This document shows positions 1,706-21,081 of a DNA stretch of 21,081 nt, piece after piece. Made by a program: the position numbers and the translations under genes. Numbering within the stretch: the first letter of the stretch is position 1; every line of letters begins with the position of its first letter. Origin of the DNA: Acidimicrobiaceae bacterium. GTDB lineage: Bacteria > Actinomycetota > Acidimicrobiia > Acidimicrobiales > Bog-793. The DNA is taken from contig PLDN01000119.1 in the NCBI GenBank assembly GCA_003136185.1, positions 44,598-65,678 on the forward strand, in the 5' to 3' direction. The notes under the pieces are model-generated. The model saw only the letters and a list, made by a program, of their open reading frames with translations. It ran no database searches and was not told the DNA's origin.

Positions 1706-2464
1706 ATGTATGGCGTGACCGCGGCAACACCCCTCTTGCAGGTCGACGACCTTCACGTCGAAGTCGAAGGCTTCGAGATCCTGCGCGGCGTCGACCTCAC
1801 CCTCCCGGTCGGCGAGCTGCATGCCGTCATGGGCCCGAATGGCTCGGGCAAGTCGACGCTCGCCAACACGATCGCCGGCAGCCCCGGCTACACCGTGACG
1901 AAGGGCCGAGTCCTCTACCAGGGCGAGGACGTCACGTCGTGGCCGGTTGACGTTCGGGCGAAGGCGGGGATGTTTCTCGCGTTCCAGTACCCCGAAGAGA
2001 TCCCGGGCGTCCGCGTCTCGCAGTTCCTCCGTCAGGCCGTCTCCGCACGACAAGGCACCGACATCTCGGCCCTCGAGGTCCGCGTGTCACTCATGGAGTG
2101 GATGAAGCGTTTGGAGATGGATGAGAGTTTTGCTTCGCGCTACTTGAACGAGGGCTTCTCGGGCGGCGAGAAGAAACGCAACGAGATCCTCCAAATGGCC
2201 CTCCTCTCGCCGGACCTGGCGGTGCTCGACGAGACAGACTCCGGGCTCGACGTCGACGCTCTGCGGGTGGTCGCGCAGGGCGTGAGAGAGGTGCGTGCCG
2301 AGAAGCCTGAGATGAGCCTCCTCCTCGTCACCCACTATCGCCGGATCCTCGACGAGCTCAAGCCGGAGAAGGTGCATGTGCTCGTCGCTGGACGGATCGT
2401 CGAGACCGGCGGGCCCGAGCTGGCCGAGCGCCTCGACACCGAGGGATACGAGGGCCTCGGCTGA
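1706..2464 (+). CDS. sufC: Fe-S cluster assembly ATPase SufC
   Basis: 252 aa with Walker A GPNGSGKST, the ABC signature FSGGEKKRNEILQ and Walker B LAVLDETDSGLD; the protein resembles SufC end to end. The start could be ATG 1706 or GTG 1715, and the RBS is weak. Confidence 0.9.
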   Translation: MYGVTAATPLLQVDDLHVEVEGFEILRGVDLTLPVGELHAVMGPNGSGKSTLANTIAGSPGYTVTKGRVLYQGEDVTSWPVDVRAKAGMFLAFQYPEEIPGVRVSQFLRQAVSARQGTDISALEVRVSLMEWMKRLEMDESFASRYLNEGFSGGEKKRNEILQMALLSPDLAVLDETDSGLDVDALRVVAQGVREVRAEKPEMSLLLVTHYRRILDELKPEKVHVLVAGRIVETGGPELAERLDTEGYEGLG

Positions 2465-3708
2465 TGGAGGAGCTCGACCCGGTCGCGCTCCGCAAGGAGT
2501 TCCCGCTCCTCGAGACGCGCCGACGACCTGACGGGAAGCGGCTCGTCTACCTCGACTCGGCCTCGTCCTCCCAGCGCCCCTACCAGGTGCTCGAGGCGAT
2601 GGACACGTACTACTCGACGACGCACGCCAACGTCCACCGCGGCGTGTACGCGATCGCAGAAGAGGCCACGCGTCAGTTCGAGGAGGCCCGCGCCAAGGTC
2701 GGCCGTTTCGTCGGCGCACCGAATCCGGCAACCGAGATCGTCTTCACGAAGAACGCCACCGAGGCGCTCAACCTCGTCGCGCATTCCTATGGGCGCGGGC
2801 GCCTTGGAATGGGCAAGGCCGTCCTTTTGACCGAGATGGAGCATCACGCCAACCTCGTCCCGTGGCTCATGCTGGCCGGCGAGCGCGGGACCGAACTGCG
2901 GTACCTGCCCATCACCGACTCCTACCAGCTCGACCTCTCAGACCTGGACAAGCTCGTCGACGGCGCCGGCGTGGTCGCAGTCTCGGCCATGTCGAACGTC
3001 CTCGGCACCGTGAACGACCTCCGCCCGATCGTCGAGGCGGCGCACGCTGCTGGGGCCGTCGTCGTCGTCGACGCCTCGCAGCTCGTTCCGCACCGGGTGG
3101 TGGACGTGGCTGCGATCGGTGCCGACTTCGTCGCCTTCACGGGGCACAAGATGCTCGGGCCGACCGGCATCGGCGTCCTCTGGGGGCGGGAGGGGTTGTT
3201 GGAGGAAATGCCGCCGTTTCTTGGCGGGGGCGAGATGATCCGAGATGTGCGCCTCGACGGGTTCACGACGAACGACATCCCTTGGAAGTTCGAGGCCGGT
3301 ACGCCGCCGATCGCCGAGGCCATCGGTCTCGGGGCGGCAGTCGACTATCTCGAGTCGGTCGGGCGCGAGGCCATCGCCGCCCACGAGCGGGCGCTGACCT
3401 ACCAGGCGATCGAGCTGTTGACCGACCGCCACGGAGACGACATCCGGATCTTCGGCCCTGGGCCGGACGACCCCAACCGCGGCGGTGTGATCTCGTTCGC
3501 CTATCGCGACATCCACCCGCACGACCTCGCGCAGGTGCTCGACTCATCGGGTGTGTGCGTGCGCGCCGGCCACCACTGCGCGAAGCCGCTCATGCGTCGC
3601 CTCGGCGTGTCGGCGACCGCTCGAGCCTCGCTATACCTGTACAACGACGAGGAAGACGTGACCGCCTTGTCCGACGCGCTCGCCAAAGCCGGCGAGTTCT
3701 TCGGCTGA
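2464..3708 (+). CDS. sufS: Cysteine desulfurase SufS (class II aminotransferase, PLP-dependent)
   Basis: 414 aa with the PLP-lysine region FVAFTGHKMLGPTGIGVLWGR and the catalytic-cysteine region RAGHHCAKPL. Its ATG overlaps the sufC stop (TGATG), which suggests translational coupling. Confidence 0.9.
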   Translation: MEELDPVALRKEFPLLETRRRPDGKRLVYLDSASSSQRPYQVLEAMDTYYSTTHANVHRGVYAIAEEATRQFEEARAKVGRFVGAPNPATEIVFTKNATEALNLVAHSYGRGRLGMGKAVLLTEMEHHANLVPWLMLAGERGTELRYLPITDSYQLDLSDLDKLVDGAGVVAVSAMSNVLGTVNDLRPIVEAAHAAGAVVVVDASQLVPHRVVDVAAIGADFVAFTGHKMLGPTGIGVLWGREGLLEEMPPFLGGGEMIRDVRLDGFTTNDIPWKFEAGTPPIAEAIGLGAAVDYLESVGREAIAAHERALTYQAIELLTDRHGDDIRIFGPGPDDPNRGGVISFAYRDIHPHDLAQVLDSSGVCVRAGHHCAKPLMRRLGVSATARASLYLYNDEEDVTALSDALAKAGEFFG

Positions 3709-3742
3709 GACTGCCAACTCGCTCAAGGAGAGCCCCGCCACC

Positions 3743-4246
3743 ATGTCAGGCCTTGAAGACCTCTACCGTGAGATCATCCTCGACCACTACCGGTCACCGA
3801 GGAACCGTGGCGAGCTGCCGGTCCCACCCGCCCAGAGGGTCGAGGGGTTCAACCCGCTCTGCGGGGACGAGGTCGTCGTCTTCCTCGAGTTCGCCGACGG
3901 AGTCGTGAAGGACGTGAAGATCGCCGGCCAAGGGTGCTCGATCAGCCAGTCGTCTGCCTCGATGATGTCGGCCGCGGTGAAGGGCAAGTCGATCGAGGAA
4001 GCCCGTCAGCTCATCTCGTCTTTCAAGGCGATGATGTCGATCCACGAGCAGGCGATCGGCGGAGACGGCAGCGATGGCGAACGGGCCGAGGCCAACATCC
4101 CGCCCGACGGGCTCGGCGAGCTTGCCGCCCTGCAGGGCGTCGTGAAGTTCCCAGTGCGGATCAAGTGCGCCACCCTCTCGTGGAACACGCTCGCACAGGC
4201 GCTCGACGAGGCGACAGCGGGCGTCGCAGCCGACGGCGCGGCCTGA
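3743..4246 (+). CDS. sufU: SUF-system Fe-S scaffold / sulfurtransferase SufU (NifU/IscU-like)
   Basis: 167 aa with LYREIILDHYRSPRN, NPLCGDEV, GQGCSISQSSASMM and the C-terminal KCATLSW, the conserved Cys/Asp ligand pattern of SufU. It carries the SufU-specific insertion (GGDGSDGERAEAN). The RBS AAGGAGAG lies upstream. Confidence 0.85.
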   Translation: MSGLEDLYREIILDHYRSPRNRGELPVPPAQRVEGFNPLCGDEVVVFLEFADGVVKDVKIAGQGCSISQSSASMMSAAVKGKSIEEARQLISSFKAMMSIHEQAIGGDGSDGERAEANIPPDGLGELAALQGVVKFPVRIKCATLSWNTLAQALDEATAGVAADGAA

Positions 4247-7260: not shown

Positions 7261-8721
7261 TCAGTTCCCGACCCCGAGCGAGACCGGCGACCGGACGACC
7301 ACCGTCCCGCGGGGAGGCGGCGCAACGGCCCGTTCGATCACGACGGGGTACTCCCCCACTGGGCCGAACTGCGAGCTCACGCGGAATACCCCCACCACTG
7401 CGCCGGCAGCCCAACCGTCATGCAGGTTCGCTGCGGTAACAGGGGCGCCGACAAGATCACCGGAGAAACTCAACCCACCCCAACCAGCCACCCGCACCGG
7501 ACCGGCTATCGACGCCCCCACAGTCGTGTGGGACCACGGGATCGACACCGAGGCGACCTTCACCATCGATCCGAAGGGCGAGACGAGCTGCAGATGGGCC
7601 GTAGCTGCATTCAGCATCGCCATGTCCACTTGGCCCGCCTGGCCCAGCCCGTCGACCTGGCCGGTCACCGAAGTGACGACGAGCACTTGCCTGCCGCCGA
7701 CCTTGCGCCACGCAGCCGCCACGAGGCAGCCTCCCGCAGCCTGAGTGAAGCCGGACTTCACCCCGATGATCCCGTCGAGACCGAGGACCGGGTTGTAGGT
7801 CGTGATCTCGCCCTCGACCGGAAAGGGGACTTCGTACAAGGCGACGATCGAACGGAAGACGGGGTTTCCCATCATGATCGAGCCGAGCAGCGCCTGGTCC
7901 GAGGCCGTCGAGACAGTCTTGCGGTCGACCCCGCTCGCGTCGGCGTAGTGGGTCTGCGTCATTCCGAGCAATAGGGCGGTCGAGTTCATCTTCGCGACGA
8001 AACGAGCCTCGGTGCCCCCCGCCCACCTCGCGAGGATGTCGGCCACATTGTCCGCCGACGGGATCAGGAGCGCCTCGAGAAGTTGCCGCTCAGTGAGAAC
8101 CTCGCCTTTGACGAGCTCCACGTTGGAGAGGTCATTCTCGGAGTACCTGATCCAGGCGTCGTGATCTGCCTGCGTGAAACGAAGACTCGGGCCCTGCTCG
8201 TTGCCCCGCAGAGGATGGGCGCGCAGCACGAGGTAAGCGGTCATGATCTTGGTTTCGCTCGCGATCGGGACCGGGTGCTCCTTCGGGCTCGCCGCGACGA
8301 TGCCCGTCCCGCTTATCGCGACTGCGCCCTCGCCGTGCGATGGAAAGGGCATCGCCGGGAGCTTGCCCGAGACCGGGGAGGTGGCGGCAGCCAGTTCAGT
8401 CAGGTGAGGCAACGAGACCTGTGCCGACGTCCCTGGCGCACCCGAGAGTGTCGACCCGTGCTCTCCTGTCAGCCTCGTGCCACCTAAGCCGGCCAGCGCC
8501 CAGGCGAGCAGGACGACAGAGACGGTCGCAAGCGAGCCGAGGACGATGATCCCGCGGCGGCGGGCACGGGCACGCGCCTGCGCAACCTTGCCAGCGCGCT
8601 CTCGGCGAGCTCGCAACTGGCCGGCGCTGTCCGCGCCGTCGCCGGGCAAGCCACCAAGTCTCTCGGTCGCTCCTCGAGCGTGCATCGGTGTTGCTGGTCG
8701 GTCGATCGGTCGGTGGCTCAT
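7261..8721 (-). CDS. D-alanyl-D-alanine carboxypeptidase (serine-type, PBP5/6-like, S11 family) with an N-terminal membrane anchor
   Basis: 486 aa. An Arg-rich cytoplasmic N-terminus is followed by a TM helix (GIIVLGSLATVSVVLLAWALAGL). The catalytic motifs are SETK (SxxK, in ASETKIMTAYLVL), SADN (SxN) and KSG (in GVKSGFT). Confidence 0.8.
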   Translation of the reverse strand: MSHRPIDRPATPMHARGATERLGGLPGDGADSAGQLRARRERAGKVAQARARARRRGIIVLGSLATVSVVLLAWALAGLGGTRLTGEHGSTLSGAPGTSAQVSLPHLTELAAATSPVSGKLPAMPFPSHGEGAVAISGTGIVAASPKEHPVPIASETKIMTAYLVLRAHPLRGNEQGPSLRFTQADHDAWIRYSENDLSNVELVKGEVLTERQLLEALLIPSADNVADILARWAGGTEARFVAKMNSTALLLGMTQTHYADASGVDRKTVSTASDQALLGSIMMGNPVFRSIVALYEVPFPVEGEITTYNPVLGLDGIIGVKSGFTQAAGGCLVAAAWRKVGGRQVLVVTSVTGQVDGLGQAGQVDMAMLNAATAHLQLVSPFGSMVKVASVSIPWSHTTVGASIAGPVRVAGWGGLSFSGDLVGAPVTAANLHDGWAAGAVVGVFRVSSQFGPVGEYPVVIERAVAPPPRGTVVVRSPVSLGVGN

Positions 8722-8769
8722 GAGAGAATTGGTCGAGCGTACGTCGGCTGGTGACCGGTCCTGTAAACC

Positions 8770-11649
8770 CTACGTGTTCAGCTGGTCGAACTCCTCTGGC
8801 GACATGAGCACCGTCCGCGCCTTCGAGCCCTCCGAAGCGCCCACGATGCCACGTCGCTCGAGCAGGTCCATCAGCCGGCCGGCGCGAGCAAACCCCACCC
8901 GGAGCTTGCGTTGAAGCATCGACGTGGAGCCTAGTTGCGAGCGCACCACTAGCTCCATGGCCTGCGAGAGCAGCTCGTCATCGTCGTCGTCGAAGGTCGA
9001 GGCTCCGCCCGGACCTGCTGACTCTTCGCCCTCGACGCCGTCGAGGTAGCGGGGACCGCTCTGCCGCTTCCAGTGCGCTGCGATGGCCCGAACCTCTTCT
9101 TCGCTCACCCATGGACCCTGTAGCCGCCGCGGGATGCTGGAGGACGCCGTCAACAGCAGTAGGTCTCCACGACCGATGAGTCGCTCGGCGCCGGGCTGGT
9201 CGAGGATCACGCGGCTGTCAGCGAGCGAGGAGACCGAAAAAGCGAGCCTCGAGGGGACGTTCGCTTTGATCACTCCGGTGATGACGTCAACAGATGGCCG
9301 CTGAGTCGCGATGACGAGGTGGATCCCAACTGCCCGTGCCATCTGAGCAATGCGGCAGATCGAGTCCTCGACGTCGCGAGCGGCGATCATCATTAGGTCG
9401 TTCAACTCATCGACGACGATCAGAACGAACGGCAGGCGCGAATGCTGGCGCTCCTCCCCCGCACTCGCTATCCGCCGCCGGCTCTCAGCCACAGCCTCAG
9501 CCGCCGACACCGAAGCCGAGCCAAATTCGCTAACAGGAATCCCGCTAGGAGCCGCCACAGGCACATCGGCCGGGTCATACGCTTCATTAGCGCCGCTCGA
9601 GCCGGCCGCGACGATTGTGTCGGAGCCGACGACCGTTTCTACGGTCGTCGGTGCCGAGACATCGTCGCCGTCGCCGCCATCGCCATCGCCATCCAGCAAA
9701 GGATCGTCGAACTCCCCCCGGTCAACCGCCGCGTTGTACCCCGTGATGTCGCGCATCCCGACCTCGGCAAGCAGGTCGTAGCGGCGCTCCATCTCGGCCA
9801 CTGCCCAACTGAGGGCATTCGCGGCACGCTTGGGGTTGACCACGACCTGGGTGAGCAGGTGCGGGAGGCCGTTGTACTGACCGAGCTCGACGCGTTTCGG
9901 GTCGACGAGGATGAGACGCACCTCGTCGGGGGTCGCCCGCATCAGGATCGAGGAGATGACCGAGTTGATGCACGACGACTTACCGGCGCCGGTCGCACCG
10001 GCGATGAGGATGTGGGGCATCTCGGCCAGGTTCACCATGACCGCCCGGCCGGCGATGTCCCGCCCGAGCGCCACCTCGAGAGGATGCGTCGCCCTACGAG
10101 CCTCCGTGCTCGTGAGGACGTCCCCGAGCGTGACGAGCTGACGCTGCTGGTTGGGCACCTCCACGCCGATTGCGGACCGGCCCGGGATGGGGGCGAGGAT
10201 GCGCACGTCCGGCGAGGCCATCGCGTAGGCGATGTCTTTCGCGAGGTTCGTCACGCGGGCCACTTTCACCCCGGCGCCGAGCTCCAGCTCGAAACGAGTA
10301 ACCGTCGGCCCAACCGTGAATCCCACCAGGTGCGTCTCGACGCCGTGGGCCGCTAGCGCACGCTCGAGGACTCTGCCGCGGGACTCGACCTCCTTGCGGT
10401 CGTGCGTCTGGTCCTTGCTCCGCTTCAGGATCTTGAGCGGCGGGAGCTTCCAGTTGCCACCCGACACGGCGACCGGGAGCGCCAGCTGTTCGACCTTGCC
10501 GGCACCGTCCGCATCCGTCCGACCGGCGGCCAGCATGCCCCCCGCCACGATGGGAGACACCCGGTCGGCCTCGCCATCGGTCGGGGCATCGACGCCTGCC
10601 ACCGCGGCATCGGCGCCGGCGCCGAGCCCTGCCGCCGCTGCCGGTGTAGCGATGGCAGGCACTCCGAGCCTTGTCCCGAGCGCCTCCTCCATGGCCACGT
10701 CGTCGAGCAGGCCCACGGCCGAAGGCGACCCATGCGGGGCGGACCCGATCGTCTCGTCGTAGCCAGTCATGGCCTGAACCGAAGGCTCGCCGGGGCCGTC
10801 GGGATCGAGCGCCGGTCGCCCGATAACCGACGTCCAAGTGGCAGAAAAGGCGCTGCACAGCCCTCCCCAGAGCCCGCGGGCTCCGATGCGGAGCACCTCT
10901 GCGACCCGCCCACCTAGGAGCCAGCAGCAAAGGGCGAGCGCAACGACGCTTATGACGACACCGGCGCCCGCTTGGCCGATGCCCTTCGCGAGACCACCAG
11001 CGATAACCGAGCCGAAGATGCCACCTGCGCCGCCGAGACGGTGCCAGGTGGCCGACGTCGGCGGGTTCCCCCCGAAAAGGTCGGCGAGGCCGGCCGAGGC
11101 GAGAGCCAGGGTCGCCACCGAGCAAACAGTGCCGAGAGCGCCCCAGACGGAGCGCTGCGCGATGAGCAGGACGCCTCCGACGATGAGGCCCACCTCGACC
11201 ACGTTCATCCCCCAGCCGAGCGTGCGGGCACCATTGGTGAACAGCCACGATCCGGCAGGTCCGAGCGCGTGGAAGGAGACGCCGAGCGAGATCAGCACTC
11301 CCGCAACCACGAGCAGCAAGCCCCAGGCGTCGTCGGGCTGGGCGCCGACCAGATCGAGCATGCGGTTCAAGGTGCGTTCGAGCGCGCCGGGACCGCGAGC
11401 AGCGGGCTTGCGGGAGGGCGCAGCGGGTCGCGCCCGTGAAGCCGACGACGCCGACTTCGCCTTCGAACCTCGGGCTCCGGACGTGGCCGAACCCGAACGC
11501 CCCGTCTTCCGCGTCGATGGTTCCCCCGAGGTGCGGGTGCCGGAGCGGGACGACGAGCCTGTACCCGTCCGACCGGCGGACCGCGACCCGGCAGCTGATT
11601 TCGTCACTGCCACAGTGCCACCAACGCTAACACCAGCCCCACCACTCAC
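8770..11649 (-). CDS. ftsK: DNA translocase FtsK (FtsK/SpoIIIE family)
   Basis: 959 aa. The N-terminus is S/G/T/R-rich and low-complexity. Four or five TM helices and a linker follow. The motor domain carries Walker A GATGAGKSS, Walker B LIVVDE and IATQRPSVDVITG. The C-terminal gamma winged-helix domain reads LLSQAMELVVRSQLGSTSMLQRKLRVGFARAGRLMDLLERRGIVG. The start is GTG at 11649; which start is used is uncertain. Confidence 0.9.
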   Translation of the reverse strand: MSGGAGVSVGGTVAVTKSAAGSRSAGRTGTGSSSRSGTRTSGEPSTRKTGRSGSATSGARGSKAKSASSASRARPAAPSRKPAARGPGALERTLNRMLDLVGAQPDDAWGLLLVVAGVLISLGVSFHALGPAGSWLFTNGARTLGWGMNVVEVGLIVGGVLLIAQRSVWGALGTVCSVATLALASAGLADLFGGNPPTSATWHRLGGAGGIFGSVIAGGLAKGIGQAGAGVVISVVALALCCWLLGGRVAEVLRIGARGLWGGLCSAFSATWTSVIGRPALDPDGPGEPSVQAMTGYDETIGSAPHGSPSAVGLLDDVAMEEALGTRLGVPAIATPAAAAGLGAGADAAVAGVDAPTDGEADRVSPIVAGGMLAAGRTDADGAGKVEQLALPVAVSGGNWKLPPLKILKRSKDQTHDRKEVESRGRVLERALAAHGVETHLVGFTVGPTVTRFELELGAGVKVARVTNLAKDIAYAMASPDVRILAPIPGRSAIGVEVPNQQRQLVTLGDVLTSTEARRATHPLEVALGRDIAGRAVMVNLAEMPHILIAGATGAGKSSCINSVISSILMRATPDEVRLILVDPKRVELGQYNGLPHLLTQVVVNPKRAANALSWAVAEMERRYDLLAEVGMRDITGYNAAVDRGEFDDPLLDGDGDGGDGDDVSAPTTVETVVGSDTIVAAGSSGANEAYDPADVPVAAPSGIPVSEFGSASVSAAEAVAESRRRIASAGEERQHSRLPFVLIVVDELNDLMMIAARDVEDSICRIAQMARAVGIHLVIATQRPSVDVITGVIKANVPSRLAFSVSSLADSRVILDQPGAERLIGRGDLLLLTASSSIPRRLQGPWVSEEEVRAIAAHWKRQSGPRYLDGVEGEESAGPGGASTFDDDDDELLSQAMELVVRSQLGSTSMLQRKLRVGFARAGRLMDLLERRGIVGASEGSKARTVLMSPEEFDQLNT

Positions 11650-11690: not shown

Positions 11691-14087
11691 TCAGGAGCCC
11701 GCGTGGCGATCGTGGCGCGCCGCTAGCCCGTGCGAGACGGCGTACCTCGTCGCCTCCACCCGGCTGCGGATGTCGAGCTTGGCGTAGATGTTGGCGAGGT
11801 GCCGCTCGACGGTGCCCACGCTCAGGTGCAGGCGCGCTGCGATCTCTTTGTTGCTCGATCCCGCCGCGACTAGCCCGAGCACCTCTGCCTGGCGAGGCGT
11901 CAGCCTGTCGGGCAGCGCCACGACCGTGAGCTCGCCGAGCTCTCCGAGCGCGGCCCGGGCGGCCGCCAACCCCTGGGTGTTGCCCGTCTCGGCTGCGAGC
12001 GACTCGGCCTCACGCAGGTGCTTGGCGGCGTCCTCGAGCTGTCCGAGCTGGTGCAACGCGCCGCTGAGCCCGATCAGCGCGTTCACGACGTCGTGCGCGT
12101 GCCCGCCTTCCCGGTAGACGACCACGGCTGTCTGGTAATACCCCGCAGCCCCGGACCAGTCCTGACGGCTGGCGCACAGGTCGCCCTGGTTGCATCGAAT
12201 GGTGCCGATCAGTTGACGGTTGTCGAGCTCGTGGGCGAGCGCTCCCGCCTCTGCCAGCGCCCGAGCCGCCATCTCGGGCAAACCGGTGCGGATCAGCACG
12301 TCGGAGAGATTGGCGAGCCCGATAGCGACTGAACGCGGGTCGCCGAGCTGGCGCTTGATGACGAGGGCCTGCTCGAACAGCTCACGAGCCGCAATGAGGT
12401 CGTCGTCGTCCAGCGCCAAGAGAGCAAGGTTGTTGAGCGCGACGGACACCCCGCGGCGGTCGCTCATCGCGTCGCGCAGCTCCATCGCGACCTGGAAGTT
12501 GCGACGTGCGGCGTCGCGGTCGCCGAGGTAGCGGTGAGCAGAGCCGAGCACCGTCGCGGCGAAGGCTGCCAACTCCCGGCGCCCGAGGCTCTGGAAGATG
12601 CCGAGAGAGACAGTCGCCTGGCGGACCGCATCGGCGTAGTCGCCGTTCTCGGCCGCGAGCACGGCGGCGGCGCTGAGGCCGTGGGCGACCGTCTCGTCGC
12701 GGCGGCGACCGGCCGCCTGCAGGAACGTACGCAGCCATCCGCGCCCGACCGTCAGCCGCCCGCACATCAGCCACCAGCGCCACAGGCGGGCGCTCATCTC
12801 GAGTCCGAGATCGGGATCGCCCTCCTCCTCGGCCCACCAAAGGGCGAGCTCGAGGTCGGGATTGGCCGCGTCCATCCGGACCGCCCACTGCGTGCTCTCG
12901 CTGCCGGCGAGGCCGTCCTCGCTGCCGCGGGCGAGCTCGGCGAAGTGCTCGGCGTGCCTACGCCGTAGTTCAGGTCCCTCGTCGGCCGCCGGCGCCAAAC
13001 CGGCGACGTAGACACGCACCGTGTCGAGCATCGTGAAGCGCGCCTGGCCGCTCTCGTGCTTGGCCACCAGGAAGGACGAGTCGACCAGTTCCCGCAGTAG
13101 CGAGGCGACCTCGTGAGCATCGACGGCCGCGACCGCCTGCGCATCGTCGATCGTGAACGCCCCTGCGAACGTGCTGAGCGCGGGAAGGAGTCGCTGCACA
13201 GTAGGACCGAGCAGGGCGTAGCTCTGCGCGGCGACCGACTCCAACGTCCGACTGGCCTCCGAACCGGGAGCAGCGGGCGCCGAGGCGATCAGCGTGTCAC
13301 GGCGGGCGGCTATCTCCCCGATCGAGAGCGTCCCCACCCACCCGGCGATCAACTCGATCGCAAGCGGGAGCCCGTCGAGCCGGCGGCACAGCTCGCCAGC
13401 CAGGCGCTGGTCGTCCCGCCCGGCGGCCAGGTCGGGCAGCCGCTCCCTCGCACGGGTAAGGAAAAGCTGTACTGCATCGGCGCTGTCGAGTTGGGCCGCC
13501 GACGCCCCGACAGGGGGGACGGCGAGCGGGGGGACGACGAACGAGGCCTCTCCCGCGACACCGAGCACCCGCCGGCTCGTCACTACGATCCGAAGGCCCG
13601 GTGCTGCCGAGAGCAAGCCTCTGACAAGGTCGGCTACCTCGTCGCGGAGCTGCTCGGCTCCGTCCAGCACCAGCACCTGCGCGGTCCCGACGAGCGCCTC
13701 GGCGATTGCCTCGTTCGTCGGGACGTCCGGTCGGTCACGGACGCGGAGGGCGGCAGCGACCGCAGCGCTCAGGAACGCCGCGCCCCGAATCGGCTCGAGC
13801 GCCACGAACGTCACCGGCAGGCCGAGCTCACTGCCTCGGATCGCTTCGAGAGCGAGGCGGGTCTTGCCGACACCGCCTGGGCCCGTGAGGCACACGAGAC
13901 GGTTGCGGGTTAGCAGCTCACCGAGGGCCGCCAGCTCGGCGGCTCGCCCGACGAAGCTCGACAGCGGCCAAGGCAACGACCCTCCGCCGGGCTCGCCAGC
14001 TGCCGAGCTATCCGACCCTCCGGCCGGCTCGGCCGGCATCGATCGCGCCGCCGCTGGCGCCGAACCAGCCGCATGCTCCGCCTCCAA
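11691..14087 (-). CDS. Large ATP-binding LuxR-family transcriptional regulator (STAND/NB-ARC-like ATPase + TPR repeats + C-terminal LuxR HTH)
   Basis: 798 aa. It has the P-loop LVCLTGPGGVGKTRLA. A central region of TPR-like repeats follows (LANLSDV..., ALNNLALLAL...). The C-terminus, LTPRQAEVLGLVAAGSSNKEIAARLHLSVGTVERHLANIYAKLDIRSRVEA, is a LuxR/GerE-type HTH. The track start at 14087 is TTG; an alternative ATG lies at 14039. Confidence 0.8.
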   Translation of the reverse strand: MEAEHAAGSAPAAARSMPAEPAGGSDSSAAGEPGGGSLPWPLSSFVGRAAELAALGELLTRNRLVCLTGPGGVGKTRLALEAIRGSELGLPVTFVALEPIRGAAFLSAAVAAALRVRDRPDVPTNEAIAEALVGTAQVLVLDGAEQLRDEVADLVRGLLSAAPGLRIVVTSRRVLGVAGEASFVVPPLAVPPVGASAAQLDSADAVQLFLTRARERLPDLAAGRDDQRLAGELCRRLDGLPLAIELIAGWVGTLSIGEIAARRDTLIASAPAAPGSEASRTLESVAAQSYALLGPTVQRLLPALSTFAGAFTIDDAQAVAAVDAHEVASLLRELVDSSFLVAKHESGQARFTMLDTVRVYVAGLAPAADEGPELRRRHAEHFAELARGSEDGLAGSESTQWAVRMDAANPDLELALWWAEEEGDPDLGLEMSARLWRWWLMCGRLTVGRGWLRTFLQAAGRRRDETVAHGLSAAAVLAAENGDYADAVRQATVSLGIFQSLGRRELAAFAATVLGSAHRYLGDRDAARRNFQVAMELRDAMSDRRGVSVALNNLALLALDDDDLIAARELFEQALVIKRQLGDPRSVAIGLANLSDVLIRTGLPEMAARALAEAGALAHELDNRQLIGTIRCNQGDLCASRQDWSGAAGYYQTAVVVYREGGHAHDVVNALIGLSGALHQLGQLEDAAKHLREAESLAAETGNTQGLAAARAALGELGELTVVALPDRLTPRQAEVLGLVAAGSSNKEIAARLHLSVGTVERHLANIYAKLDIRSRVEATRYAVSHGLAARHDRHAGS

Positions 14088-17244: not shown

Positions 17245-18630
17245 ATGTTGTTCTGGCACGTTCCTGCCCCTGACGAGGCTTTGTTGATCTCCGGTAGCAA
17301 GCACAGAGATGGCGCGACCCAGTTCCACGTCGTGACCGGCCACGGTTCGTTCGTGATGCCTATAAAGCAGAAGGGTCGGGTGTTGTCACTCGCGCTGCGA
17401 GAAGCCGAGCTCCTCGAGGAGTGTGTCACGACTCAGGGGATCCCGCTCAAGGTCCGTGCAGTCGCCGTGTTCAAGATCGGTGATGACCAGGTGTCGATCG
17501 CGAACGCCGCGAGGCGTTTCTTGGCTGAGCAGGACAAGATGGAAGAGCTCTGTGGCCGCATCTTCGCAGGGCACCTCCGCTCGATCGTCGGCAGCCTGAC
17601 CGTCGAGGAGATCATCCGTGAGCGCGACAAGGTCGCGCAAGAGGTGAAGGACGGCTGCCATCCCGAGATGGAGAAGCTCGGCATCGTCGTCGACAGCCTG
17701 CAGATCCAAGAGATCGAGGACCCGACCGGGTACATCCGCAACATCGCCGCTCCGCACGCCGCCGCAGTCGCGAGCCAAGCCCGCATCGCGGCGGCCATCA
17801 GGGACCAGGAGGCTGCCGAGAAGGAGCAGCAGGCCGCTCGGGCGAAGAACCAATTCGAGCGCGACACTGCCGTGCAGCGCGCCAAGATCGAAGCCGAGGT
17901 GCAAGAGGCGCAGGCTCGTGCAGCCCAGTCCGGCCCGTTGGCCGAGGCAAAGGCGTCACAGGACGTCATCGCCGAGCAGACCTCGCTCGCCGAACGCCAG
18001 GCGGGCCTCACCGACAAGCGGCTCGAGTCAGAGGTTCGCCGCCCTGCCGACGCCGAGGCCTACAAGCAGCGGACGCTGGCCGACGCTGCCCGCGACGCCA
18101 TGAAGGCGAACACCGAGGCCGAATCGAACAAGCAGCGGATGATGGCTGAATCTGCCCGTGACGCTCTGTTGTTGTCGACCGAGGGCGAGGCGGGGCGGAA
18201 GAAGTCGCTCGCCGAAGCCGATGCGAAGGCCCGCGTCGTGTCGGCTCAAGCCGAGTCCGAAGCGGCGAAGACCACCGCCGACGGGAGCGCCTACGCGCAA
18301 CGCACGGTCGCGCAGGCCGAGGCCGATGCGATCAACGCCCGCGCCGACGCCCTCGCCGGCGAGAACCAGGTGCTGATCGCGGCCAACAAGCTCGTCGAGA
18401 TGCTGCCCCAGCTCGTCGAGGCCGCAGCCGCCGGCATCAACGGATCGAACCTCACGGTGCTGAACGGCTCGGCGGGCGTTAACGACGTCGCCGTCGGCCT
18501 CGTCGCGCAGGGGATGACGATCTACGACACCTTGCGGAAGTCTCTCCAGACCGGCTCGCTACACGGAGTTGCGGCGGTCAACGGGGCCACCCCTGAAGGT
18601 GCCGCGGCCGAGGTGGTGAAGGGCGCTTAG
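17245..18630 (+). CDS. Flotillin-like SPFH/Band-7 domain protein (FloT/YuaG-like)
   Basis: 461 aa. An N-terminal SPFH domain (...RVLSLALREAELLEECVTTQGIPLKVRAVAVFKIGDD...RDKVAQEV...) is followed by a long Ala/Glu/Gln-rich coiled-coil typical of flotillins and a C-terminal region. RBS GAGGTGAG upstream. Confidence 0.8.
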   Translation: MLFWHVPAPDEALLISGSKHRDGATQFHVVTGHGSFVMPIKQKGRVLSLALREAELLEECVTTQGIPLKVRAVAVFKIGDDQVSIANAARRFLAEQDKMEELCGRIFAGHLRSIVGSLTVEEIIRERDKVAQEVKDGCHPEMEKLGIVVDSLQIQEIEDPTGYIRNIAAPHAAAVASQARIAAAIRDQEAAEKEQQAARAKNQFERDTAVQRAKIEAEVQEAQARAAQSGPLAEAKASQDVIAEQTSLAERQAGLTDKRLESEVRRPADAEAYKQRTLADAARDAMKANTEAESNKQRMMAESARDALLLSTEGEAGRKKSLAEADAKARVVSAQAESEAAKTTADGSAYAQRTVAQAEADAINARADALAGENQVLIAANKLVEMLPQLVEAAAAGINGSNLTVLNGSAGVNDVAVGLVAQGMTIYDTLRKSLQTGSLHGVAAVNGATPEGAAAEVVKGA

Positions 18631-18651: not shown

Positions 18652-20109
18652 TCACGAGAACGCGATCGCCTCGCTCACCGAGTCGTGCGGGTCGTCCTCA
18701 TTTTGTGCCAGCACCTCACATCGTGTGGTCGTGTCGCAGTTGAGTGTGCTGCTCGGAATGGCCTTCGACACGTGCAAGCCGGTGTCTCCTGCCCCCGTGG
18801 CGTCGGCCGTCACCGCGCTTACCTCGAAGCAGGCGAGTTCGCCGGCTAGCGATGCGCATTCGGCCACCTCTAGCTGCGCACCGGCAGGGAAGTTGCTCAC
18901 GGCAACCGAGATGATGCTGCCGTCGCTGATACCCGTCGCGGGAGTCACCGATATGCCGGGCACGACGGGGGACCCCGAGGCGTTGAACGAGATCGAGCGG
19001 CTCGTCGAGTACCACCCGTCCAAGTCGTCCTGCACGAAGATGTCACACCGTGCCGTGTCACAACTCACCTTCGCGCTCGGGGCCTCCAACACGGGGAACT
19101 GAATGCTGACGTCTCCGGCGGAGGTTGCGTTGGTGTACACCAAATCGGGTGCGCAGGCCGCCACGCCGGCCACGCACTCCTGCACGGTCACCTCGTCGTC
19201 GGGTGCAAAGCCTGACACCGTCACGGTCACGATCTGGCCGTCGACCAGACCAGACCGCGTGCTGACTGTCTCGCTCGGCGAGAGCGCCTTGGCCTTCGGA
19301 TTGAAAGAGATGGGAGCAGAAATCGCAGACCCAGGCACGCCGGAGTACGTCGTCAAGGCACACCCGGGCGACTTCTCGCAGCTGACGGTCACCTGCCCAT
19401 GGCCGCTCGGATGTTCGATGTGGCTGCTGACGCGATAGGTGCCCGAGCTCTGACCCCTGGCGTTCGTCTGGAGGAAGGCGTCGTATTGGCGAAAGTCACA
19501 CTGATTGGTTGTCGGCTGGCCAACCGCCTCACACTCCCTCAGCTGAAAGCTGGAATCCGGTCTGAAGTTTTTGCCTGAGACAGTGACCGTCTCGTTCGGG
19601 GTCAAGTTCTTCGAGCTCGACAACGACAGGGTCGGGACGAGCGGCTTGGCCTTCGGGTTGAACGAGATCTTCTCGCCCGTCGACTGTCTCGCTGGGTCGA
19701 CGGCGTCCCCGGCTGCCACGATACAGCCCGGCGTCTTCACGCAATTGATCGTCGTCGAGCCGACGACGATGTCCTGGGAGACCTGGAAAGGCTCCGAGAA
19801 TGACCCAGTCGCTGAGGTGTCGAAAGTCGTCGCGAACTGCGTGTTCTCACATTGCGCCTCGGCCTTCGCCCCCGGCTCGCACTCGAGGATGCCCACATAG
19901 GTCTTTTTCAGAAAGTGGTAGCCGTGGACCGTGATTATCTGGCCGGACGCGAGGTTGGTGGCCTGACTCAGGTGGAGGGATGCCTTCGAGCTCGTCACCG
20001 CCTTAGCTGCCTCGGCTGCCTGCGCCAACTGAGCGCTCGTCGCCACCGACGACAGCGCCAGCAGTACTGCCACTACCCCGCCAATCTTGTATCGCGAGCT
20101 CTTCCGCAC
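18652..20109 (-). CDS. Secreted protein with four tandem neocarzinostatin-fold (NCS apoprotein-like) domains
   Basis: 485 aa. The N-terminal signal peptide MRKSSRYKIGGVVAVLLALSSVATSAQLAQA is followed by four repeats of ~110 aa. Each has the pattern LxxG(Q)xVTVxGxxF...ECx(8-12)C...(D)xxG.F...(I/V)xCx(5-6)C...ISF(N). The two Cys pairs with spacings of ~10 and ~5 mirror the C37-C47 and C88-C93 disulfides of neocarzinostatin/macromomycin/actinoxanthin apoproteins. ISFNPKAK linkers join the domains. GTG start at 20109 with the RBS GGGGGGAGAGGA. Confidence 0.7.
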   Translation of the reverse strand: MRKSSRYKIGGVVAVLLALSSVATSAQLAQAAEAAKAVTSSKASLHLSQATNLASGQIITVHGYHFLKKTYVGILECEPGAKAEAQCENTQFATTFDTSATGSFSEPFQVSQDIVVGSTTINCVKTPGCIVAAGDAVDPARQSTGEKISFNPKAKPLVPTLSLSSSKNLTPNETVTVSGKNFRPDSSFQLRECEAVGQPTTNQCDFRQYDAFLQTNARGQSSGTYRVSSHIEHPSGHGQVTVSCEKSPGCALTTYSGVPGSAISAPISFNPKAKALSPSETVSTRSGLVDGQIVTVTVSGFAPDDEVTVQECVAGVAACAPDLVYTNATSAGDVSIQFPVLEAPSAKVSCDTARCDIFVQDDLDGWYSTSRSISFNASGSPVVPGISVTPATGISDGSIISVAVSNFPAGAQLEVAECASLAGELACFEVSAVTADATGAGDTGLHVSKAIPSSTLNCDTTTRCEVLAQNEDDPHDSVSEAIAFS

Positions 20110-20128
20110 GGCCTAATCCTCTCCCCCC

Positions 20129-20441: not shown

Positions 20442-21081
20442 TCAGGCGGTCTTGAGCTTGATCTCCCCGTCGGCGAGTTGGAAGGCGGCGTACTCCTCCG
20501 CGGTGTCCTCCCAGTCCTCGAACTGGATGGCGCCGAGCTCAGTGAACTTCGTGCGCAGCCAGCCGTCACCGGCGTCGAGCAGCCCGAGCTTCTTCAAGTT
20601 GGGGACGATCTTCGAGAACAGCATCACCTGGAAGGCCTTGCGGTCAGGAGCGGCCATCGTCAAAGGAAGCACGTCCTTCGGCGAGACACCCATCCTGTCC
20701 CACACTTCCTGCTGCAAGAAACGGTCCCGCATCCGCACAGCCGCCTCGAACGCGAACTCCTGTCGCTCGCGGATCTCCGGACCCGACAGCTCGGTGTAGA
20801 AGTCCTGCAGCGCGAGCACGCCGAAGGCGACGTGGCGTGCCTCGTCCGACATGACGTAACGCAAGAGCTGCTTCAACAACGGCTCCTGGGTCAGCGCGTG
20901 CATGAACCCGAAAGCAGCCAGCGCAAGGCCCTCGACCATGATCTGCATTCCGAGGAAAGTCATGTCCCAACGGCTGTCGGCGATGATGTCGTCGAGCAGC
21001 AACTTGAGGTGGGCGTTGATCGGGTAGTGACCCGAGAGTTTCTCGTCGAGGTACTTCGCGAAGACCTCGACGTGGCGGGCC
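20442..21081 (-). CDS. Ferritin-like diiron-carboxylate protein (AurF / N-oxygenase-like), partial; the N-terminus lies beyond the right edge
   Basis: There are three E..H-type metal-ligand motifs: ...ARHVEVFAKYL (read from 21003-21081 in frame), MVEGLALAAFGFMHA and MSDEARHVAFGVL (ExxH). The ORF is open to the window end; the track's M at 21002 is an internal TTG. Stop at 20442-20444. Confidence 0.5.
   Translation of the reverse strand, partial: ARHVEVFAKYLDEKLSGHYPINAHLKLLLDDIIADSRWDMTFLGMQIMVEGLALAAFGFMHALTQEPLLKQLLRYVMSDEARHVAFGVLALQDFYTELSGPEIRERQEFAFEAAVRMRDRFLQQEVWDRMGVSPKDVLPLTMAAPDRKAFQVMLFSKIVPNLKKLGLLDAGDGWLRTKFTELGAIQFEDWEDTAEEYAAFQLADGEIKLKTA

What the first reader, a model, noticed from the sequence alone, without database searches (positions are those of the whole stretch)
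18652..20109. Secreted tetra-domain neocarzinostatin-fold protein
Each of the four ~110-aa repeats shares with enediyne-chromophore apoproteins (neocarzinostatin, macromomycin, actinoxanthin) the two-disulfide spacing (Cys-x8-12-Cys and Cys-x5-6-Cys), the LxxGQxVTVxGxGF N-terminal strand and the C-terminal (A)ISF(N) strand. Known NCS-family apoproteins are single-domain ~110-aa secreted proteins that carry a small-molecule ligand. A signal-peptide protein with four such domains in tandem, in a genome region with no visible enediyne PKS genes, would be an unusual architecture. It might be a multivalent small-molecule or lipid carrier, or a cell-surface binder. The DNA also shows internal near-repeats at the domain junctions (cttggccttcgg(g/a)ttgaa(c/a)gagat at ~19290 and ~19650).
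Basis: partly seen in the sequence, partly recalled or inferred. Interest (0 to 1): 0.72.

Follow-up and report, generated by a model that had tools for sequence, protein, structure and literature searches.

The report
Secreted four-domain neocarzinostatin-fold protein
The gene really does encode a secreted protein made of four neocarzinostatin-like domains, but this tandem layout is common among uncultured actinobacteria, where the domain looks like a building block of cell-surface proteins rather than an antibiotic carrier.

Summary

The claim of an unusual architecture is not supported. An exhaustive profile search found 1998 representative clusters. All 150 best hits have 2-8 tandem NCS domains, and four is the commonest number. 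NCBI already names one paralogue "neocarzinostatin apoprotein domain-containing protein".

It is not an enediyne chromoprotein. Each domain scores 40-58 bits against the NCBIfam equivalog (cutoff 86; true NCS 136). The aromatic pocket loop is shortened. No PKS lies within ~31 kb of housekeeping genes.

Relatives carry LAxTG sortase anchors or esterase, Calx-beta or PKD fusions, and sit beside large Ig-repeat surface-protein genes. A close relative has four paralogues at this site.

The best reading is a secreted rod of disulfide-locked Ig-like modules acting at the cell envelope. That function is inferred. The family has not been studied experimentally, so interest is modest.

The parts
18652..20109 (-). 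Gene for the 485-aa secreted protein with four NCS-fold domains (stop codon included)
   Evidence: ORF. Pfam PF00960 matches four stretches. An identical protein is on record on a 152-kb ENA contig. dN/dS is 0.25 against the orthologue in L002.
20117..20128 (-). Shine-Dalgarno-like GGGGGAGAGGA, 7 nt upstream of the GTG start
   Evidence: Read directly from the sequence.
20017..20109 (-). Signal peptide, residues 1-31 (basic n-region, hydrophobic core, AQA|A cleavage motif)
   Evidence: Sequence inspection. pLDDT is below 50 for residues 1-40. 120 of 152 relatives have a similar hydrophobic N-terminus.
19654..19983 (-). NCS-fold domain 1 (residues 43-152; Cys77-Cys87, Cys123-Cys129)
19294..19638 (-). 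NCS-fold domain 2 (residues 158-272; Cys193-Cys204, Cys244-Cys250)
   Evidence: Pfam 38.4 bits alone; domain boundaries.
18982..19284 (-). NCS-fold domain 3 (residues 276-376; Cys312-Cys319, Cys350-Cys355)
   Evidence: Pfam 34.2 bits alone; domain boundaries.
18655..18966 (-). NCS-fold domain 4 (residues 382-485; Cys418-Cys427, Cys458-Cys464). The protein ends at the last strand with no anchor.
   Evidence: Pfam 36.4 bits alone. Direct phmmer hits to 1NCO, 1HZK, 1ACX and 2MCM at about 5e-8. Foldseek TM 0.75-0.79 to NCS and macromomycin.
19275..19311 (+). DNA near-repeat copy A, encoding the domain 2/3 linker ISFNPKAKAL
19632..19668 (+). DNA near-repeat copy B, encoding the domain 1/2 linker ISFNPKAKPL

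Best explanation
The gene encodes a Sec-secreted, acidic (pI about 4.7), roughly 47-kDa protein. It consists of four NCS-fold beta-sandwich modules, each locked by two disulfides and joined by short proline-containing linkers, which would give a beads-on-a-string rod. It belongs to a large, experimentally uncharacterised family of multi-domain NCS-like extracellular proteins of Actinomycetota; here the host is an Acidimicrobiales bacterium. In this family the NCS-like module behaves as a stable Ig-like building block of cell-surface and secreted proteins, acting as spacer, stalk or binding module. It does not behave as a carrier of an enediyne chromophore. This copy has no covalent anchor, so it is probably released or held non-covalently in the envelope. 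Shown here: the gene, the four homologous domains, the cysteine pattern, the fold (predicted), the abundance and architectures of relatives, purifying selection, and paralogue expansion. Inferred: secretion, disulfide formation, and the structural or adhesive role at the envelope.
For: Identity of the protein: sequence homology; predicted fold; cysteines and signal peptide.

Size and shape of the family: 1998 representative clusters match, and the top 150 all have 2-8 domains. The counts are 85 with four, 23 with five, 21 with three and 19 with six domains. 637 of 655 domains have exactly four Cys. For each domain position, the best match in other four-domain proteins is at the same position 63-71 times out of 85.

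Extracellular or surface role in relatives: 27 of 152 end in LAxTG/LPxTG plus a hydrophobic tail, and 120 of 152 have signal-like N-termini. Some are fused to BD-FAE/esterase, Calx-beta, PKD and LPXTG domains, and sources name some 'LPXTG-motif cell wall-anchored protein'. An SrtE-anchored cell-wall protein with an NCS-like domain (CwpG) is described in Actinoplanes (PMC13251363).

Genomic company: the genes sit beside 995-1116-aa CarboxypepD_reg/SdrD_B repeat proteins and TIG or BNR/PKD proteins.

Whole-chain fold: the best PDB match is a tetra-tandem extender region of a large adhesin, 6xi3.

Conservation and evolution: only structural-core residues (Cys, Gly, Leu, Phe) are invariant across 20 four-domain relatives. 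The gene evolves faster than its neighbours but under purifying selection (dN 0.17 against 0.03-0.08; dN/dS 0.25). Copy number at this site varies from 1 to 4.
Against: No member of the multi-domain family has a demonstrated function, and the one mutant reported (cwpG, single domain) had no phenotype. This protein lacks any anchor or recognisable wall-binding domain, so its surface association is not shown. The NCS fold includes a cleft, and I could not compute pocket geometry because no coordinates were accessible, so ligand binding is not excluded. The signal peptide was judged by eye only. The structure models rest on alignments of only four sequences (pLDDT 76-79).
Confidence: 0.55

Rival explanations
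1. The protein is a multivalent extracellular carrier or scavenger. Each NCS-like domain would use the cleft between the beta-sandwich and the hairpin subdomain to hold a hydrophobic small molecule, such as a lipid, a secondary metabolite, a siderophore or haem.
Against: The loop that in chromoproteins precedes the second disulfide is 4-7 residues shorter in domains 1, 3 and 4; from memory, this is the NCS Phe76-Phe78 loop that caps the chromophore. The position aligned to NCS Trp39 is Pro, Ala or Ser. No pocket-like polar or aromatic residues are conserved across relatives. No transporter, haem or siderophore genes are adjacent. The fusion partners and anchors of relatives fit a structural module better.
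Confidence: 0.22
2. The protein is an enediyne chromoprotein apoprotein or self-resistance protein, multimerised, serving a nine-membered enediyne made elsewhere in the genome.
For: The whole protein exceeds the NCBIfam NF040680 'enediyne antibiotic chromoprotein' cutoff (168 bits against 86). The only PDB sequence relatives are the five chromoproteins.
Against: The 168 bits are a sum over four domains. Each domain alone scores 40-58 bits, below 86, while real NCS scores 136. There is no PKS within about 31 kb, and the context is conserved housekeeping genes: pnp, dapB, dapA, rnj, ftsK and suf. Copy number varies between close relatives with no biosynthetic genes nearby. Hundreds of multi-domain relatives carry surface anchors or esterase fusions.
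Confidence: 0.03
3. The ORF is not a real gene: either a chance ORF in GC-rich DNA or a decaying pseudogene.
For: High-GC windows produce many long spurious ORFs on all six frames.
Against: There are strong family hits. All 16 Cys are conserved. Orthologues exist at 73% and 54% identity in syntenic positions. dN/dS is 0.25. The model is confident and four-domain.
Confidence: 0.01

Closest known systems
Enediyne chromoprotein apoproteins (neocarzinostatin NcsA, C-1027 CagA, actinoxanthin, macromomycin, kedarcidin; Pfam PF00960, NCBIfam NF040680)
   Different: There are four tandem domains instead of one. Each domain is below the equivalog cutoff. The loop before the second disulfide is shorter, and the position aligned to Trp39 is not aromatic. 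There is no enediyne biosynthetic context. The host is an Acidimicrobiales MAG lineage, whereas the characterised chromoproteins come from Streptomyces/Actinomadura-type producers (own knowledge).
Database-annotated 'neocarzinostatin apoprotein domain-containing proteins' of Actinomycetota (multi-domain, uncharacterised)
   Same: The architecture is the same: signal peptide plus 3-8 NCS domains, each with four Cys. P0003 carries this NCBI name; it is a four-domain paralogue in a close relative's genome at the same locus. P0002 and the L002 and L003 genes are orthologues.
   Different: There is no difference in kind. This copy ends at the last domain, as do 28 of 152 relatives. Others add LAxTG anchors or enzyme, Calx-beta or PKD domains.
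CwpG of Actinoplanes missouriensis (SrtE-dependent cell-wall-anchored protein with one NCS-like domain; PMC13251363)
   Same: It has an NCS-like domain (IPR002186) in an exported actinobacterial envelope protein that is not linked to enediyne production.
   Different: CwpG has one domain, is 219 aa long and is sortase-anchored. The window protein has four domains and no sorting signal. Deletion of cwpG gave no phenotype, so it offers no functional transfer.
Tandem Ig-like extender regions of bacterial adhesins (for example the tetra-tandem repeat of a large adhesion protein, PDB 6xi3)
   Same: This is the best whole-chain structural match, E 2.2e-10. It is also a string of four small beta-sandwich modules with short linkers.
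   Different: Only the general fold class is shared (16% identity, and the global rmsd is meaningless). There are no disulfide pairs of the NCS type, and no sequence homology was detected.

Membership tests
Neocarzinostatin family / NCS-like fold (Pfam PF00960) | Significant match to the family HMM for every repeat | tested here: met
   Whole protein: E 3.1e-31 with four stretches. Each domain alone scores 36.1, 38.4, 34.2 and 36.4 bits against a gathering cutoff of 25.
Neocarzinostatin family / NCS-like fold (Pfam PF00960) | Two conserved disulfides (four Cys at the NCS Cys37-Cys47 and Cys88-Cys93 positions) | tested here: met
   There are four Cys per domain, aligned with the chromoprotein cysteines. 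They are invariant in 20 relatives, and 637 of 655 related domains have exactly four Cys. Disulfide formation itself is inferred.
Neocarzinostatin family / NCS-like fold (Pfam PF00960) | Seven-stranded Ig-like beta-sandwich plus a small hairpin subdomain | tested here: met
Neocarzinostatin family / NCS-like fold (Pfam PF00960) | Exported via an N-terminal signal peptide | tested here: met
   The n-region, h-region and AQA|A motif were identified by inspection, and the N-terminus is disordered in the model. No dedicated predictor was available.
Enediyne antibiotic chromoprotein (NCBIfam NF040680 equivalog) | A single domain scoring above the equivalog cutoff (86 bits) | tested here: not met
   The domains score 40.2, 46.2, 53.3 and 58.5 bits, while authentic NCS scores 136.1. 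The whole-protein score of 168 bits is a sum over four domains.
Enediyne antibiotic chromoprotein (NCBIfam NF040680 equivalog) | Single-domain mature protein of about 110 aa | tested here: not met
   The mature protein is 454 aa with four domains.
Enediyne antibiotic chromoprotein (NCBIfam NF040680 equivalog) | Encoded in or near an enediyne PKS (PKSE) biosynthetic cluster | tested here: not met
   The largest ORF in the window is FtsK at 959 aa. The extra 10 kb of the contig holds pnp, pepM16, dapB, TetR and AurF-like genes. The rest of the genome could not be examined.
Enediyne antibiotic chromoprotein (NCBIfam NF040680 equivalog) | Aromatic/hydrophobic chromophore pocket (NCS Trp39, Phe52, Phe76-Phe78 loop; residue list from my own knowledge of the 1NCO structure) | tested here: inconclusive
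   The alignments show the loop before the second disulfide is 4-7 residues shorter, and the Trp39 position is Pro, Ala or Ser. The Phe52 position is Phe, Tyr, Leu or Ala. No coordinates were available for pocket analysis.
Enediyne antibiotic chromoprotein (NCBIfam NF040680 equivalog) | Binds and stabilises an enediyne chromophore | not testable with these tools
   This needs biochemistry.
Sortase-anchored actinobacterial cell-wall proteins | C-terminal LAxTG/LPxTG motif, hydrophobic segment and basic tail | tested here: not met
   The protein ends ...SEAIAFS directly after domain 4. The signal is present in 27 of 152 relatives.

The most novel reading that the evidence does not exclude
Tandem NCS-fold proteins may be a widespread class of actinobacterial extracellular proteins whose domains each bind a small hydrophobic or metal-chelating ligand. 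The famous single-domain enediyne apoproteins would then be a specialised offshoot recruited from this much larger envelope-protein family. In that case the window protein would be a four-site extracellular ligand scavenger or buffer.
Probability: 0.12. Interest if true: 0.65.

Novelty: new member of a known kind. Interest (0 to 1): 0.33.

Why it matters
There are three practical consequences.

1. Annotation. Summed multi-domain scores push this protein over the NCBIfam 'enediyne antibiotic chromoprotein' equivalog cutoff. Pipelines and genome-mining tools could therefore call it, and hundreds of relatives, a chromoprotein or an enediyne-cluster marker. Per-domain scoring shows that call would be wrong.

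2. Size of the family. The NCS fold is known from a handful of antibiotic carriers. It is in fact used mostly as a repeated, disulfide-locked Ig-like module in extracellular proteins of poorly studied Actinomycetota (1998 representative clusters), and none of these has a known function.

3. The locus. The site between the AurF-like gene and dapA is a variable island of secreted repeat proteins in Acidimicrobiales, with one to four NCS×4 paralogues. That may be of interest for envelope biology in this uncultured lineage.

None of this changes current understanding. It is a well-founded annotation of an uncharacterised family member.

Tried and rejected
1. The word-index homologue search returned only four proteins, both with the single sequence and with a 20-sequence alignment. 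The second search was wasted; the exhaustive representative search was what showed the family's size.

2. The AFDB Foldseek library was unavailable, so I obtained no UniProt-annotated structural neighbours.

3. Literature searches for tandem or multi-domain NCS proteins found nothing specific. Only two passing mentions of NCS-like domains outside enediyne clusters turned up.

4. The promoter/terminator scan around the gene found nothing. Rfam and tRNA scans of the window were empty.

5. I considered whether the junction DNA repeat reflects recent gene conversion or duplication and rejected it. The domains are only about 32% identical to each other, the domain positions are conserved across distant relatives, and the repeat simply encodes the conserved ISFNPKAK linker.

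6. I considered a functional link to the adjacent convergent flotillin (SPFH) gene and rejected it. That gene is truncated in L002 and absent in L003, while the NCS genes persist.

7. I considered a link to the upstream TetR/TetR/AurF-like genes. They are 77-97% conserved regardless of NCS copy number, so co-function is neither supported nor excluded.

Full report

Yes. A 485-aa ORF occupies exactly 18652-20109 on the minus strand. It starts at a GTG preceded by GGAGAGGA with a 7-nt spacer. Pfam's Neocarzinostat model (PF00960) matches it in four stretches (E 3.1e-31). NCBIfam NF040680 also matches in four stretches.

I cut the protein into residues 43-152, 158-272, 276-376 and 382-485. Each piece on its own exceeds Pfam's gathering score: 34-38 bits against a cutoff of 25.

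The protein has 16 cysteines, exactly four per domain, and they align with the two disulfides of the chromoproteins.

The N-terminus (MRKSSRYK / IGGVVAVLLALSSVA / TSAQLAQA|AE) has the layout of a Sec signal peptide, with no lipobox and no twin arginine. This is by inspection only. The AF2 model leaves residues 1-40 unstructured.

The DNA near-repeat at about 19290 and 19650 is real, with 2 matches where 0 are expected, and it extends to 37 nt at 84% identity. It encodes the conserved linker ISFNPKAK(A/P)L that ends domains 1 and 2.

**2. Fold**

A full-length AlphaFold2 model (pLDDT 78.8, four-sequence alignment) shows four all-beta domains. In a Foldseek search of the PDB, single-domain hits to neocarzinostatin, its engineered variants and macromomycin have TM 0.75-0.79, rmsd 3.1-3.5 Å and about 30% identity. 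The best whole-chain hits are strings of Ig-like domains, led by a tetra-tandem extender region of a large adhesin, 6xi3.

A profile of the four domains hits only the five solved chromoproteins in the PDB sequence set, at E 1.3e-12 to 5e-8. Homology to the NCS family is therefore secure for all four repeats.

**3. Is it an enediyne chromoprotein?**

No.

- The NCBIfam equivalog cutoff is 86 bits. The whole protein scores 168, but the individual domains score 40, 46, 53 and 58, whereas authentic NCS scores 136. The whole-protein pass is a summation artefact.
- The alignments show that chromoproteins have a loop 4-7 residues longer before the second disulfide. In NCS this is the Phe76-Phe78 region that covers the chromophore, according to my own knowledge of 1NCO.
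- The position aligned with NCS Trp39 is Pro, Ala or Ser here.
- The surroundings are housekeeping genes: suf genes, a luciferase-like oxidoreductase, a GHMP kinase, a D-Ala-D-Ala carboxypeptidase, ftsK, a LuxR/STAND regulator, RNase J, dapA and a flotillin.
- On the 152-kb source contig, the next genes are an AurF-like gene, two TetR genes, dapB, an M16 peptidase and PNPase.
- No ORF of PKS size is present.

**4. Is the architecture unusual?**

An exhaustive HMMER search with the four-domain profile against 1.84 billion cluster representatives found 1998 proteins at E ≤ 1e-3, 665 at ≤ 1e-10 and 110 at ≤ 1e-30. Every one of the best 150 has 2-8 matched stretches.

I re-scanned 152 sequences locally:

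| Domains per protein | Number of proteins |
|---|---|
| 4 | 85 |
| 5 | 23 |
| 3 | 21 |
| 6 | 19 |

Of their 655 domains, 637 have exactly four cysteines. In four-domain proteins, a domain's best match in another protein lies at the same position 63-71 times out of 85. The four-domain unit is therefore old, and its positions are individually conserved; it is not a recent internal duplication. Consistent with that, the window's own domains are only about 32% identical to one another.

NCBI already names one of these proteins [quoted passage not shown].

**5. What the relatives suggest about function**

- Of the 152 relatives, 120 have signal-like N-termini.
- 27 end in a sorting signal plus a hydrophobic tail. 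The signal is mostly LAxTG, which I recall as the class E sortase motif of actinobacteria.
- 28 end at the last domain, like the window protein.
- 29 have long C-terminal extensions. These include BD-FAE/carboxylesterase domains, Calx-beta, PKD and LPXTG anchors.
- Source names include "LPXTG-motif cell wall-anchored protein" and "acetyl esterase/lipase".

The literature held here has only passing mentions. CwpG of Actinoplanes missouriensis is an SrtE-dependent wall-anchored protein with one NCS-like domain, and its deletion gave no phenotype (PMC13251363). In Jiangella, an NCS-domain gene next to an HtaA gene was discussed in relation to iron and haem uptake (PMC13608877).

Across 20 four-domain relatives, the only invariant residues are the cysteines and core Gly, Leu and Phe positions. 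That is what one expects of a structural module and not of a conserved binding or catalytic site.

**6. Locus comparison**

The closest genome hits are Acidimicrobiales and Acidimicrobiaceae MAGs, so the window is most likely from that order.

In L002, and in three NCBI assemblies, the flanking genes are 87-97% identical in protein to the window's. At the same site, between the AurF-like gene and dapA, these genomes carry a 995-999-aa CarboxypepD_reg/SdrD_B repeat protein, four NCS×4 paralogues and a truncated flotillin.

L003 has two NCS×4 genes (one apparently frameshifted), an APH-type kinase gene, a 1116-aa CarboxypepD_reg protein and no flotillin. A three-domain relative, P0004, sits between a 937-aa TIG protein and a 1143-aa BNR/PKD protein.

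The window has a single copy. Its orthologue in L002 is only 73% identical. For the NCS gene, dN is 0.17 and dN/dS is 0.25; for the neighbours, dN is 0.03-0.08 and dN/dS is 0.07-0.20. Domain 1 is the most constrained (dN/dS 0.13) and domain 3 the least (0.31).

The gene is therefore functional and under purifying selection. It evolves faster than its neighbours and sits in a copy-number-variable island of secreted repeat proteins. I read this pattern as typical of envelope or surface proteins, which is an inference.

**7. Most likely mechanism**

After Sec export and signal-peptide cleavage, the roughly 47-kDa acidic protein (pI 4.7) folds into four disulfide-locked beta-sandwich modules joined by 5-6-residue linkers containing Pro. 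This would make an elongated rod.

It has no sortase signal, lipobox or known wall-binding domain. It would be released or held non-covalently, perhaps through the highly conserved domain 1, which is a guess.

I rate the identity statement (secreted four-domain NCS-fold protein, member of the multi-domain family, not a chromoprotein) at about 0.9. I rate the functional statement (structural or adhesive envelope module rather than ligand carrier) at about 0.55.

The main rival, a four-site small-molecule carrier, keeps about 0.2. The fold family is a proven ligand scaffold, and I could not analyse the pockets.

**8. Novelty and interest**

This is a new member of a kind already present and named in the databases. 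Its function is unknown experimentally. The useful by-products are the annotation caveat (the summed equivalog score) and the picture of the NCS fold as mainly a repeat module of actinobacterial extracellular proteins. Interest is modest, at 0.33.

Noticed in passing
L002 361-10303 (also L010, L011, L012); L003 5293-13089: The site between the AurF-like gene and dapA is a variable island in related Acidimicrobiales. L002 has a 995-999-aa CarboxypepD_reg/SdrD_B repeat protein plus four tandem NCS×4 paralogues. L003 has two NCS×4 genes, an APH-family kinase gene and a 1116-aa CarboxypepD_reg protein. The window has a single NCS×4 gene.
   Followed up: partly
window 18652-20109 (-): The whole protein passes the NCBIfam NF040680 'enediyne antibiotic chromoprotein' equivalog cutoff (168 against 86 bits) only because four sub-threshold domains (40-58 bits each) add up. 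This is a likely source of mis-annotation and of false enediyne-cluster flags for the whole multi-domain family.
   Followed up: yes
window 17245-18630 (+); L002 9476-10303; L003: The flotillin/SPFH (Band_7) gene converges on the NCS gene, with only 21 bp between the two stop codons. In L002 it is truncated to its C-terminal 276 residues (called as a 252-aa gene), and in L003 it is absent. Its long Ala/Glu/Gln-rich C-terminal half is unusual for the family.
   Followed up: partly
L003 8200-9700: The NCS×4 orthologue in the Acidimicrobiaceae MAG is split over two overlapping frames (8200-9306 and 8849-9700). This is either a frameshift from an assembly or long-read error or a pseudogene. The JGI protein P0002 is the intact-looking version.
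   Followed up: no
window 20442-21002 (-), continuing beyond the window end; L001 8538-9668: An AurF-like di-iron protein (Pfam AurF 29.9 bits, just above the 29.6 cutoff) is 97% identical between the window lineage, L002 and L003. That is far more conserved than its neighbours. Two TetR genes precede it. Its function is unknown.
   Followed up: no
window 11691-14087 (-): A large STAND/LuxR-type regulator (AAA_16 + TPR + GerE; 798-aa ORF here, called as 837 aa with an HTH_3 N-terminus on the contig) is inserted between RNase J and ftsK in an otherwise classical actinobacterial dapA-rnj-ftsK arrangement. It is missing from that position in L003.
   Followed up: no
window 1706-4246 (+): This is a suf-type Fe-S cluster assembly segment: ABC ATPase, class-V aminotransferase/cysteine desulfurase and a NifU-like scaffold. 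It looks ordinary.
   Followed up: no
tool behaviour: The word-indexed protein search returned only four relatives, even when given a 20-sequence alignment, while the exhaustive HMMER search found 1998 clusters. For low-complexity, Ser/Ala/Thr/Val/Gly-rich repeat proteins, the word index badly understates family size.
   Followed up: yes
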